Assembly: GCA_963820825.1 (NCBI GenBank)
Contig: CAWGBN010000003.1
Location: 32,001-96,000 of the forward strand
Origin: Vulcanimicrobiota bacterium
Lineage (GTDB): Bacteria; Vulcanimicrobiota; Vulcanimicrobiia; Vulcanimicrobiales; Vulcanimicrobiaceae
Reading direction: 5' to 3'
Length of the DNA stretch: 64,000 nt
The stretch's first letter is position 1; the number at the start of each line of letters is the position of its first letter. A program made the position numbers. Shown here one piece after another: positions 21,001-24,000 of the stretch.

Positions 21001-24000
21001 TTGCGTAATCTTGCGAGGTGCTGCCGTTGAGGTTAGCGGCACCAAAGACGAGTACCAGATAACCGCCGGCGGCGCCATTGAAATTCACCGACGTCGGCGT
21101 CGGAGCGTAGATCAGGCCGCTATAGTTACCACTGGTTCCGTTGAAATTCGGGCTGCCCGAGTTGCTCGGAACCTGGTAGTAGAGTACGCCCGCCGTCGGC
21201 CCGCTGCTCATCGGCGTCATGGTCGCCGCGCTGACGCCATTGAAGTTCGGTGGGGAGGCGTTCGCCGTGACGTACATCGTGACGCCGTTGCCCGTGATGG
21301 TTGCGCCGTTGAAGTTTTCGCTTCCATTGAACGTGTATATTCCGTTGCTCATCGTCACGACGGCGCCGTTGAGGTTGAGGCTGTTGTAACATCCTGGGCT
21401 CAAGGGGCCGTGGTAGCCGTTGCCGTTAAAATTTTGGCAGTTGGTCGTCGGCTGCGGGTTGTTGGCGAGGTAGTTGCACCCGGCAATTTCAGGGCAGGGG
21501 TCGGCGACCGGCATCATCAGCGTCGGTTTGCCGGTCGTGAAGGTCGCGCCGTTTTGGTTCGGGGCCGGTCCGGCATAGCCGATGCTGAGCGCGTTGATCG
21601 TCGCGCCGTTGAAGTTCGCGGTGTCGTTGATTAGGATGCCGCACTTCGTGGCGGTCATGTGTCCGCCGTTGAAGTTCGACGAAACCGTCGGGCTGAGGAG
21701 GTAGATACAACCGGAGCCGGAGTTGCTGACGATTGCGGTCGCCTGCGTCGTCTCGGTGACCCCGGACGAATAGCCGAAGAGACGCTCGAAGAACGTCGAA
21801 TTGTTCGTCGTCGTGATGCTGACCATGACGGCGCAGCTGTTGCCCGAAAACGGACCGCTTGCGGGCGGGTTTGCAACGCTCACCGACACGTTGCCGGCGT
21901 TACCATAGCCATTGTTTGCAGCATCGGTATCGGCGCCGGACGTTGCCACCGTCTTGTTCGGACATCCTACCTTGACAAGCGAGGCGGCGCCCCCTGCCGC
22001 CGCCGCATCGGTCGCGGCTTGCTGCGTTTGGTTGCGATACTCCAAGTAGCCGACGTCGACGCCAATACCGCCGAAGCCCATGAGCGCGGCGAGACTGACG
22101 GCGATCAGCGGGAGAACCTGACCCGACTGACCCCGGCGCCTCATCGGGTGAGGATCTCCGGCGTCATCACGAAGACGACGTCCGACTGGTTATTTTGATA
22201 GGCCGTCGAGGTGAAGAGCTTTCCGAGGATCGGAATAGACGAGAGGATCGGAATTCTCGAGACGGTCTTCATCTCGACGCGATTAACGAGGCCTCCAAGC
22301 ATAATACTCTCTCCAGGTCGGGTCGTCACGTCGGTTGAGAGTTTGCTCACCAGTAGTGCCGGAATGGTAAAGCCGGAGACGACAACGGCATTGGCATAGT
22401 CGAGCCGGGAGATCTCCGGCGCGACCACCGTGTGAACCGAACCGTTGCCGAGGATTTCGGGCGTTACGTTCAACTGTACGCCGTAGGGTTGATACTGAAC
22501 GTTGACCGCACCGAGTCCGGTCGACGTTACTACCGGTATCTCGCCCCCGACTAAGAACGTTGCCTTGGCTCCGGGACTCGTTACCAAATTCGGGCTAGAG
22601 AGAACCCTCGCATGGCCCTCCTGCATGAGCAGGTTCAGGGTCGGAGCTAGAGTCACCGTACGGAAGAACGGCTGAATCGTGAAGCCCAACCCCGCGGGTG
22701 GTTGCGAGAATCCCTCAACTACCGGAAATGACGGACCACCCAACGTATAGGTTTGTGGGTTAATTGCCGGATTGAAGGATGCCGAATTCAGTTGCAGCCC
22801 GAGGTTCGATTGGGCCGTTTTATCGACCTCGAGCACGTAGACTTTGATATCGATCTGGCTATTGCTTAAAGAGTTCAAACGATCGATCAGCTGCCCGTTG
22901 CTCGCAAGATAGGGTCCGGCGAGGCCGCGGGCACGATCGAGAATGGCCTGTGCGGTAACCGCATCGGTGGCGTTGCCGCTCACGATCACGTTACCTTTTC
23001 CATCGGGATCGACGCGAATATCGCTCGCGCCGGGTATGCCGGCGATTGCGTGCTGCAGATCGCTGAGATTCTGGGATATCGTTACCGCGTTGACGATGAC
23101 CGCATCTTGCGCCTTGAGCACCGGCTGGAACCGGCCGATGATGTCGTTGATCTGCTGGAACTGCGCCCCGTCCGACACCGTACCGCGCACGACGACCGAG
23201 TGATCGAAGCTGACGACCTGGACGCTCGGCGCCGAGATCGCGCTGCGCAGCATTTGGGCGACGTCGTCGAGCTGCTGCTGGGTCACCGTTACCTCATAGG
23301 TGACGCGGCGCCCGCCGGCCCAGATAAAGACGGTCGTGTGGCCCGGCGCCTTTCCGTTCACCACCACCTGCGAGGTGCCGACCGGAACGACGCCGGCGAT
23401 CCGGCCGTCACCGACGGCAACGCGGGTCAAGCCTTCGGCCTTCAGTAATATGGAGTGGCCCGATTGAATCGAGACCAGAGTGATCTGGTCCGCGCAGACC
23501 GGCGCTGCGGGCGCAGCAAGGGCCGCGATTAGAAAGGGAATTATCCGCCGACTTAAAGCGTTCATCGTTGAGTATTATGCCACGGATTCCGGCGTTAACG
23601 CGTTAACGCAATGAGGACGTTGAGTTAGAATCGCGGCAAACGGCCTCGCTTCTGTTGCCAAGGCGGCGGCAGTGATGGCATGATACAGCGCACCAGGAGC
23701 TAGGAGGTTTCCATGCGGCCTTATCGTCAGGTGGTTCTTCCTTTACTCTGCTGGCTGATTTCGGCACAAGGCGCCGCGGCAGCAGCAGGGCAAGGAGTTC
23801 CGCTCGCAACCGTCGCCCACGATGCTCACCTCGAGTATACGTGGCTGGCGGCGACGCGTGCCGTACAACTGAGCGGCCCCGGAATCGTGCTCGTTGTTCG
23901 CCCAGGCGACAATGTGTACGAAGTGGACGATCGTGTCGAAGTAACCACAGTTACGCCACGCTACATCTCCAACGACATCTACGTCTCGCAAGCGCTTGCT

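What a model noticed while it worked through the whole genome (the two positions that open the first line are those of the whole stretch)
23573..23633. A palindromic operator GTTAACGCGTTAAC links Tad pilus, exopolysaccharide and surface-protein genes
A 14-bp palindrome between two divergent -10 boxes controls both Tad/Flp pilus promoters (C3:48905, 55594), the head of the exopolysaccharide operon (C6:24556), the two large secreted proteins at its far end (C6:4537) and four lipoprotein genes. It defines an adhesion regulon whose regulator is not yet named.
Evidence so far: Eight intergenic sites at E 6e-11 to 6e-4. The site is kept at the secretin/Flp divergent promoter in 8 genera and at both Tad promoters in 3 complete Cybelea, with further sites before surface proteins and glycosyltransferases, 0 in reversed controls.
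(Added by a program. Inside this text positions count along the whole contig: contig position 32,001 is position 1 of the stretch shown here. "Call 12" and the like, gene names such as g00115 and contig names such as C1 are that model's own, and its searches are not shown. The text may have been shortened before it was handed on; [...] marks where a part breaks off. The agent that wrote the report below was given it as the finding of a first reader that could run no searches.)

Follow-up and report, generated by a model that had tools for sequence, protein, structure and literature searches.

The report
Pilus-gene control element and candidate activator
In a family of mostly uncultured soil bacteria, one shared DNA switch sits in front of the genes for sticky pili and, in some species, slime and surface proteins; the protein that most likely reads it is a relative of the activators that turn on antibiotic production in Streptomyces.

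Summary
The palindrome is real (window 23593-23608). It is one of 8 strong sites in the genome, all intergenic, and it sits at the Tad secretin promoter in 22 genera.

It is only part of a roughly 40-bp element. The core kept in every lineage is an array of heptamers at an 11-bp period. Some lineages keep the array without any palindrome.

A candidate regulator is encoded 15 kb away (38558-40039, minus): a MalT-type STAND ATPase fused to a C-terminal SARP domain (AfsR/EmbR-like), a class known to bind 11-bp-period repeats. Of 55 genomes with the gene, 44 carry the element; of 25 without, 2 do. In 9 of 9 genomes where gene and pilus disagree, the element follows the gene. Three Tad loci lacking the gene lack the element.

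The EPS site is kept in 5 of 13 orthologous loci. Tad is the core target; EPS and lipoproteins are variable additions. Binding, activation and an adhesion role are inferred, not shown. My look-ups returned no earlier scan note on it.

The parts
23593..23608 (.). Box A: 16-bp 7-2-7 palindrome (element positions 1-16); its right half is heptamer unit 9 of the 11-bp array
   Evidence: orthologous sites
23612..23629 (+). Heptamer units 20 (degenerate here) and 31 of the 11-bp-period array
   Evidence: near-perfect repeats at these positions in other genera
23617..23631 (+).
   Evidence: kept where no rightward gene exists
23574..23582 (-). Predicted extended -10 of the leftward (secretin) promoter, 13 bp from box A; no consensus -35 at normal spacing; the start codon follows almost at once
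   Evidence: inference, no TSS data
23655..23684 (+). Predicted rightward promoter (-35 at 23655-23660, -10 at 23679-23684) for the 247-aa gene and the flp-cpaA-cpaB-cpaEF-tadBC operon
   Evidence: conserved in relatives; inference
16904..16919 (.). Second box A, between tadG/tadE (left) and flp (right); box B absent, a third half-site at 10-bp period
16888..16896 (-). Predicted extended -10 of the tadG-tadE promoter, 10 bp from the second box A
   Evidence: inference
22141..23565 (-). Tad secretin (CpaC/RcpA), head of the leftward operon with TadG/TadE pseudopilins (to 18857) and a 467-aa conserved unknown (17437-18840)
23713..30696 (+). Rightward operon: 247-aa copper-amine-oxidase-N-like protein, two Flp pilins, prepilin peptidase, CpaB, fused CpaE/CpaF, TadB, TadC, second A24 peptidase
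15051..17234 (.). tadE-tadG (minus, 15051-16732) and flp (plus, 17073-17234), flanking the second site
38558..40039 (-). Candidate regulator, 493 aa: MalT-type STAND NOD (about 10-280) + OmpR-type winged HTH (about 300-400) + first half of a BTAD; no TPR sensor domain
   Evidence: co-occurrence

Best explanation
The element is the binding array of a pilus-locus transcription activator, most likely the MalT-NOD/SARP fusion encoded at window 38558-40039.

Its OmpR-type winged helices bind heptamers of the type CGTTAAC, side by side on one face of the helix at an 11-bp period (element positions 9, 20, 31). In most lineages one more copy lies 8 bp to the left, and that copy creates the palindrome.

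From this one array it turns on two back-to-back promoters. Leftward, it sits over the -35 region of a promoter that has only an extended -10 (AfsR-like, class II). Rightward, it acts from upstream on a promoter with its own -35/-10 (class I-like; the distance changes by one helical turn between lineages).

The ancestral target is the Tad machinery. In Ca. Cybelea the regulon has spread to an EPS operon and to surface lipoproteins. The ATPase probably gates activity, but its input is unknown.

Shown: the element, its architecture, conservation and co-occurrence, and the protein's domains. Inferred: binding, sign of regulation, start sites, role in adhesion.
For: 1. Synteny. In 36 of 49 genomes with both genes (hand tally) the regulator lies within 26 kb of the secretin on one contig. 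Several duplicated tad loci each have a copy. It was the only regulator-like cluster recurring across 25 tad loci (8 of 25 within the 20 kb fetched).

2. Co-occurrence in 80 genomes. The profile of the element hits 44 of 55 with the gene and 2 of 25 without. Nine of the 11 misses have box A or the array on closer look.

3. Discordant genomes. Gene present and secretin not found: 6 of 6 have the element. Secretin present and gene not found, even with a profile: 0 of 3 have it. EPS loci of gene-less genomes: 0 of 3 have it.

4. Geometry. A heptamer matrix built without positions 20 and 31 gives mean Z 2.97 at period 11, against -0.03 to 1.03 at periods 7, 9, 10, 12, 13, 14, over 26 lineage groups. 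Gene-less loci give -0.34. SARPs bind repeats 11 or 22 bp apart over the -35, and the AfsR box begins CGTT (PMC10936776 and PMC10972967 passages).

5. Protein. The family profile matches MalT (E 8e-23), EmbR (1.5e-9) and AfsR (8.9e-9). The AlphaFold model matches EmbR at rmsd 2.9. The recognition helix aligns with AfsR's, keeping R87/T88/S91/R94/K95 equivalents.

6. None of the 12 OmpR-type domains of this genome tracks the element in the 6 relatives compared.
Against: No binding, expression or TSS data.

The gene is physically linked to tad, so part of the co-occurrence is linkage. Kin are not independent, and I chose the 80 genomes by motif status. Of the 6 'gene without pilus' genomes, two keep tad remnants (G006, G011) and two are fragmented (G001, G270).

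G014 (7 contigs, 96% complete) has two strong full elements and no regulator. G184 has one weak partial hit without it. G138 has only a C-terminal fragment of the gene and no element.

The dominant 8-bp head-to-head pair (period-8 Z 3.8) is not a known SARP arrangement. Spacing to the left -10 is 29-30 bp from the upstream repeat, against 28 for AfsR, and the main-clade downstream repeat is out of phase.

The BTAD is truncated (1-76 of 146), so some AfsR-polymerase contacts may be missing. The AfsR base-reading R92 is N in 16 of 26 homologs. No site lies upstream of the regulator itself.
Confidence: 0.68

Rival explanations
1. Same protein, but a repressor or dual switch: it blocks the overlapping -35 regions of the divergent promoters, with the right-hand box acting as a real -10.
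For: At the EPS and tadG sites box A supplies a good -35 at 17-18 bp from the -10, which a bound protein would cover. The last T of the right-hand box is weakly linked to having a rightward gene (41 of 53 vs 9 of 18, p 0.04, kin not independent).
Against: At the main site the leftward promoter has no -35 at normal spacing. The rightward spacing keeps helical phase (37-39 nt vs 49 nt). SARP domains are described as activators.
Confidence: 0.1
2. A different, more global factor binds the element (an OmpR-family response regulator working like CtrA or PhoP, or an unrecognised dimeric factor), and the STAND-SARP gene merely travels with tad.
For: OmpR-family proteins also use 11-bp repeats (PhoP shares the AfsR box, PMC10972967 passage). 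G014 has sites without the candidate. A 7-2-7 palindrome suggests a symmetric dimer. I did not screen TetR, XRE, MarR, Crp, LysR or RHH families.
Against: The conserved OmpR-type domains are equally present in element-less genomes, and the two patchy ones do not track it. No response regulator with a GerE domain stood out in this 85%-complete genome. Tad and EPS promoters lack the element in all 3 + 3 loci from genomes without the candidate.
Confidence: 0.16
3. The element is a promoter for an alternative (ECF-type) sigma factor: -35 in box A, -10 in box B.
For: Box A to box B spacing is fixed (8, rarely 7). The genome has 17 Sigma70_r2 matches.
Against: Box B is kept where such a promoter would fire into a convergent gene (11 of 11 pairs). 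Ordinary -10/-35 elements flank the element on both sides. Three or four equal repeats at 11 bp are not a sigma pattern.
Confidence: 0.04
4. Not regulatory: a copied repeat, mobile-element end or structured RNA.
For: Some lipoprotein paralogs may have carried the promoter along by duplication.
Against: Spacers vary freely while box positions are fixed across 31 different flanking-gene pairs. No Rfam match in window 16000-25000. The element is absent from the 3 tad promoters of genomes lacking the regulator.
Confidence: 0.02

Closest known systems
SARP activators of Streptomyces and Mycobacterium (AfsR, EmbR, ActII-ORF4, SARP-LAL PimR)
   Same: OmpR-type winged HTH followed by BTAD. Cluster-situated gene. 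Two to four heptamer repeats at an 11-bp period overlapping the -35 region. Repeat begins CGTT like the AfsR box.
   Different: Domain order is reversed (NOD first, SARP last). BTAD is only half length and there is no TPR sensor. Host is Eremiobacterota, whereas the review calls SARPs exclusive to actinobacteria (PMC10972967 passage). Targets are pili, EPS and lipoproteins, not antibiotic clusters. An extra head-to-head repeat at 8 bp, and spacing to the -10 does not match the 8-bp rule at the main site.
MalT / LAL STAND regulators
   Same: N-terminal NOD closely alignable with MalT (E 8e-23), intact Walker A, acts on divergent promoters by inference.
   Different: No TPR-like sensor and no LuxR HTH; the output is a SARP domain. 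About 490 aa against about 900 (MalT length recalled).
PprB regulon of Pseudomonas aeruginosa
   Same: One activator directly controls Tad pili plus other surface adhesion functions (PMC6821963 passages).
   Different: PprB is a two-component response regulator with a different architecture. Its adhesion role is shown; here it is not.
CtrA control of Flp/Tad pili in Alphaproteobacteria (recalled, not from a call)
   Same: OmpR-type winged HTH, 11-bp-period AT-rich half-sites over the -35 of pilus promoters.
   Different: CtrA is a phosphorylated response regulator and cell-cycle master. No OmpR-type response regulator tracks the element here.

Membership tests
SARP activators | OmpR-type DNA-binding domain followed by BTAD | tested here: met
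   BTAD in 21 of 26 and Trans_reg_C in 9 of 26 homologs; profile hits EmbR and AfsR; model matches EmbR, rmsd 2.9
SARP activators | Full seven-helix BTAD | tested here: not met
   Match covers profile 1-76 of 146; the model has 3 helices after the winged HTH
SARP activators | SARP domain at the N-terminus, extra domains C-terminal | tested here: not met
   NOD is N-terminal, SARP at about 300-478
SARP activators | Target has direct repeats 11 or 22 bp apart | tested here: met
   Period-11 peak; four repeats in L271, L274, L275
SARP activators | 3' repeat 8 bp from the -10, upstream repeat over the -35 | tested here: inconclusive
   Overlap with the -35 region holds. Repeat-start to -10 is 17-18 at the EPS and tadG sites (AfsR 17), 19 and 30 in the direct-repeat clade, 21-22 and 29-30 at the main site. 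No TSS data
SARP activators | Binds the repeats and activates transcription | not testable with these tools
   Needs EMSA, footprinting and transcription assays
MalT/LAL STAND regulators | MalT-type NOD with Walker A | tested here: met
   G39, G41, K42 and D106 invariant in 26 of 26; MalT is the top hit by sequence and fold. The second Walker B acid is C in this protein.
MalT/LAL STAND regulators | TPR-like sensor and C-terminal LuxR HTH | tested here: not met
   No such domains in 493 aa
NarL/FixJ 7-2-7 operators | A receiver-plus-GerE regulator present that tracks the site | tested here: inconclusive
   GerE matches lie almost all in large ORFs apart from receiver domains; one 459-aa ORF has a receiver and a weak partial GerE hit. 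Genome 85% complete; relatives not searched.
OmpR-family response regulator regulon | A response regulator present in element-bearing and absent from element-less genomes | tested here: not met
   0 of 12 Trans_reg_C domains fit, in 3 element-less and 3 element-bearing relatives; loci of the latter only partly fetched

The most novel reading that the evidence does not exclude
A sensor-less MalT-NOD/SARP fusion is the master switch for surface attachment across this order of Eremiobacterota. It activates two back-to-back promoters from one array. Its winged helix has been re-wired between a pure direct-repeat operator and a palindrome-plus-repeat operator: the three palindrome-less loci of one genus carry AfsR's arginine in the recognition helix, where most others have asparagine. 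This would be a SARP-type domain binding head-to-head, gated by a partner or nucleotide signal, and controlling pili, EPS and lipoproteins instead of antibiotics.
Probability: 0.3. Interest if true: 0.78.

Novelty: new variant of a known kind. Interest (0 to 1): 0.62.

Why it matters
It gives a named regulator, its operator and its targets in a widespread soil phylum for which my paper searches found no reconstructed regulon. It extends SARP-type activation, described as an actinobacterial antibiotic-control device, to pilus and envelope genes with a reversed, sensor-less architecture. The system is small enough to test in vitro or in E. coli (one protein, a 110-bp promoter fragment). Natural operator variants make the rules of winged-helix spacing directly testable.

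Tried and rejected
Right-hand box as a simple -10: rejected.

Exact 14-mer as the motif: too strict; the central pair varies.

NarL/GerE, OmpR response regulators and sigma factors: examined as alternatives. Other regulator families were not screened.

Autoregulation: no box A of note within 400 bp upstream of 31 regulator ORF matches in fetched loci (best 8.9 bits).

Single-sequence PDB search of the regulator found nothing; the alignment profile did.

Generic k-mer search for the housekeeping promoter consensus was uninformative, so promoter calls rest on conservation.

RNA runs: none was listed for window 16001-25900; this is no evidence either way, and no reads were laid. Rfam: no match.

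No complex prediction was run, since the tool does not score protein with DNA.

Shuffle p-values are inflated by the one strong unit, so only the comparison across periods is used.

Earlier-findings look-ups returned three unrelated notes and nothing by sequence or words.

Paper searches for the motif, for BTAD with Tad, and for SARP/MalT/STAND with Eremiobacterota listed no description of this system. I saw listings only, except find-passages of PMC11301090, PMC10972967, PMC10936776, PMC9758169, PMC3666418 and PMC6821963. PMC3666418 tabulates a LysM-BTAD gene in a Propionibacterium tad locus, a different architecture. No supplements were read; Table S8 of PMC9758169 may list pilus genes of the cultured strain.

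Full report
SETTING. The window is contig C3:32001-96000 of a 2.98-Mb, 64% GC, 85%-complete genome. Named records carrying the same element are mostly Ca. Cybelea or Eremiobacterota. Window 15051-30696 is a complete Tad/Flp locus with two divergent promoter regions.

OBSERVATION. The exact palindrome is at 23594-23607 and a two-mismatch copy at 16905-16918. A matrix trained on relatives ranks those 8 alone at 20 bits or more. The reversed genome and 5 of 5 simulated genomes give none. The collecting pattern came from this genome, so independence is partial. Neighbours are the two Tad promoters, the priming glycosyltransferase heading a Wzx/Wzy EPS operon, and five sites each facing a lipoprotein-like gene. 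My lipobox regex called 3 of these 5, the other two by eye; it of 2459 genes genome-wide.

DISTRIBUTION. The strict pattern occurs in 22 of 41 genomes, its reversed control in 1. A relaxed 7-2-7 pattern occurs in 137 of 301 phylum genomes: 118 of 215 in the family, 3 of 4 in a sister family, 0 of 23 in family f3 of the same class outside the order. The control rang in 11 of 216 family genomes (hand count), and outside the class the hits look like background. In other genera the one site is usually the secretin promoter. All 22 distinct secretin promoters with upstream sequence from an unbiased protein search carried a variant by eye, including two genomes with no exact match. Overall 39 of 51 promoters in 22 genera score 14 bits or more; most of those genera were chosen by pattern.

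THE ELEMENT IS LARGER THAN THE PALINDROME. Six of the eight sites have a second block, box B, 8 bp after box A. The composite pattern finds 71 loci among all GTDB species representatives. Of these, 68 are titled as this phylum or genus, and they span 31 different flanking-gene pairs. Box B is retained in 11 of 11 pairs whose right-hand gene is convergent, including at positions the search left free. So it is not merely a -10 for a rightward gene. At the secretin site the rightward gene has its own conserved -35/-10 at 23655-23684. Its -10 begins 49 nt after array unit 31. Two other sites of this genome give 49 and 51 and other genera 37-39 (read), about one helical turn less. The left-hand -10 goes with a leftward gene (46 of 59 vs 5 of 12, p 0.03, kin not independent).

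AN 11-BP ARRAY IS THE CORE. In distant genera positions 9, 20 and 31 hold recognisable copies of one heptamer. L271, L274 and L275 have four direct repeats (-2, 9, 20, 31) and no palindrome. L276, L281 and L282 have three weaker repeats and no palindrome. With a matrix built only from box A halves of non-tad sites, the mean Z over 26 lineage groups was 3.8 at period 8 (the palindrome), 2.97 at 11, 1.72 at 15, and -0.03 to 1.03 at the other six periods.

CANDIDATE REGULATOR. Clustering genes of 25 tad loci showed one recurrent regulator-like gene (8 of 25 within the DNA fetched), the homolog of window 38558-40039. It is a MalT-type NOD fused to a SARP domain with half a BTAD (model pLDDT 88.8; Foldseek MalT first, EmbR rmsd 2.9). 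Its recognition helix aligns with AfsR's. Homologs are abundant in metagenomes (266 at E 1e-20 among 8000 candidates scored), and the nearest Atlas clusters are Vulcanimicrobiota. MalT-plus-BTAD proteins exist in other phyla, so the domain mix itself is not unique. SARPs bind repeats 11 or 22 bp apart over the -35 (passages of PMC10936776, PMC11301090, PMC10972967).

CO-OCCURRENCE. In 80 genomes chosen by motif status before the gene was scored, 55 have the gene and 52 the secretin. A profile of the element hits 44 of 55 with the gene and 2 of 25 without. Of the 11 misses, G270 and G056 have relaxed-pattern sites. G080, G254 and G137 have box A at the secretin. G050, G139, G140 and G161 have the array only. 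G138 has a gene fragment and no element, and G234 was not inspected. Where gene and pilus disagree the element follows the gene in 9 of 9: present in G001, G006, G011, G023, G109 and G270; absent from the secretin promoters of G073, G131 and G156, which lack the gene even by profile. Gene and secretin lie within 26 kb in 36 of 49 genomes with both (hand tally).

EVIDENCE AGAINST. G014 has two strong elements and no gene; G184 has one weak hit. G006 and G011 keep tad remnants. G001 and G270 are fragmented. Linkage and kinship inflate any statistic, so none is given. OmpR-type regulators do not track the element, but other families were not screened.

TARGETS. The EPS site is kept in 5 of 13 orthologous loci of relatives (G015, G153, G163, G187, G288) and in 0 of the 3 from gene-less genomes. 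Other targets in relatives include beta-propeller, phosphoesterase and beta-helix lipoproteins, a GT2-YaiO operon and many unknowns. 'Tad core plus variable cell-surface genes' describes this better than 'adhesion regulon'.

MECHANISM (inferred). Side-by-side winged helices occupy units 9, 20 and 31 plus the extra unit at 1. The leftward promoter has an extended -10 and its -35-like hexamer 21-22 bp away, inside unit 9. This resembles the long-spacer afsS promoter (20 bp) and would need the activator. The rightward promoter is reached from about -55 to -90. The NOD likely sets activity through nucleotide state, as ATP does for AfsR (abstract of PMC10936776). With no sensor domain, the signal is open. 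AfsR's base-reading R92 is R in 4 of 26 homologs, all of one genus; three are paired with palindrome-less arrays. Genus g33 lacks the palindrome with N at that position, so this is a lead only.

DATA NOTE. Unpublished genomes enter tallies only: G234 in the 80-genome counts (gene and secretin present, no profile hit), G249, and G249, G251 and G276. No conclusion depends on them.

VERDICT. A real, lineage-wide regulatory element. A specific SARP-like STAND activator is the probable reader (0.68). It works like a SARP but fails two SARP membership features, so it is a new variant of a known kind. Interest 0.62.

Noticed in passing
window 1664-9407: Hopanoid cluster. One 1182-aa ORF (2758-6306, minus) carries both a flavin amine-oxidase domain and squalene-hopene cyclase, an apparent fusion.
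   Followed up: no
window 26296-28359: CpaE-like ParA domain fused to the CpaF/TadA ATPase (687 aa); similar length in relatives.
   Followed up: no
window 17437-18840: 467-aa protein with no Pfam match, found in 16 of 25 tad loci examined; probably an unnamed Tad component.
   Followed up: partly
window 23713-24456: 247-aa secreted protein with a weak copper-amine-oxidase N domain, heading the flp operon in 21 of 25 tad loci.
   Followed up: partly
window 32839-38610; L234-L253: GT87/DUF2079-like and related membrane proteins flank many tad loci; possible pilin or surface glycosylation.
   Followed up: no
L129, L132, L134, L135, L149, L026: Box A recurs just downstream of the rpsJ (S10) gene, ahead of variable inserted genes (tandem lipoproteins in L129): a hot spot for cassettes carrying the element.
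   Followed up: partly
G014 C5:67487 (L185) and C1:1263733: Two full elements in a near-complete genome where neither regulator nor secretin was found; possibly orphans after recent loss.
   Followed up: partly
L287, L288: A second, 58%-identical paralog of the regulator away from tad in G086 and G103 (also G130), with no box A nearby.
   Followed up: partly
L200, L201: In genus g21 the box lies before a glutaredoxin-like gene, so the regulon can take in non-surface genes.
   Followed up: no
G011 C5, C6, C11: Three near-identical copies of one two-site lipoprotein locus; may be assembly redundancy that inflates its count.
   Followed up: no
G000 C3:14625 and C7:175257: Two weaker box A matches: 14 bits intergenic and 18 bits just inside a gene start; status unknown.
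   Followed up: no
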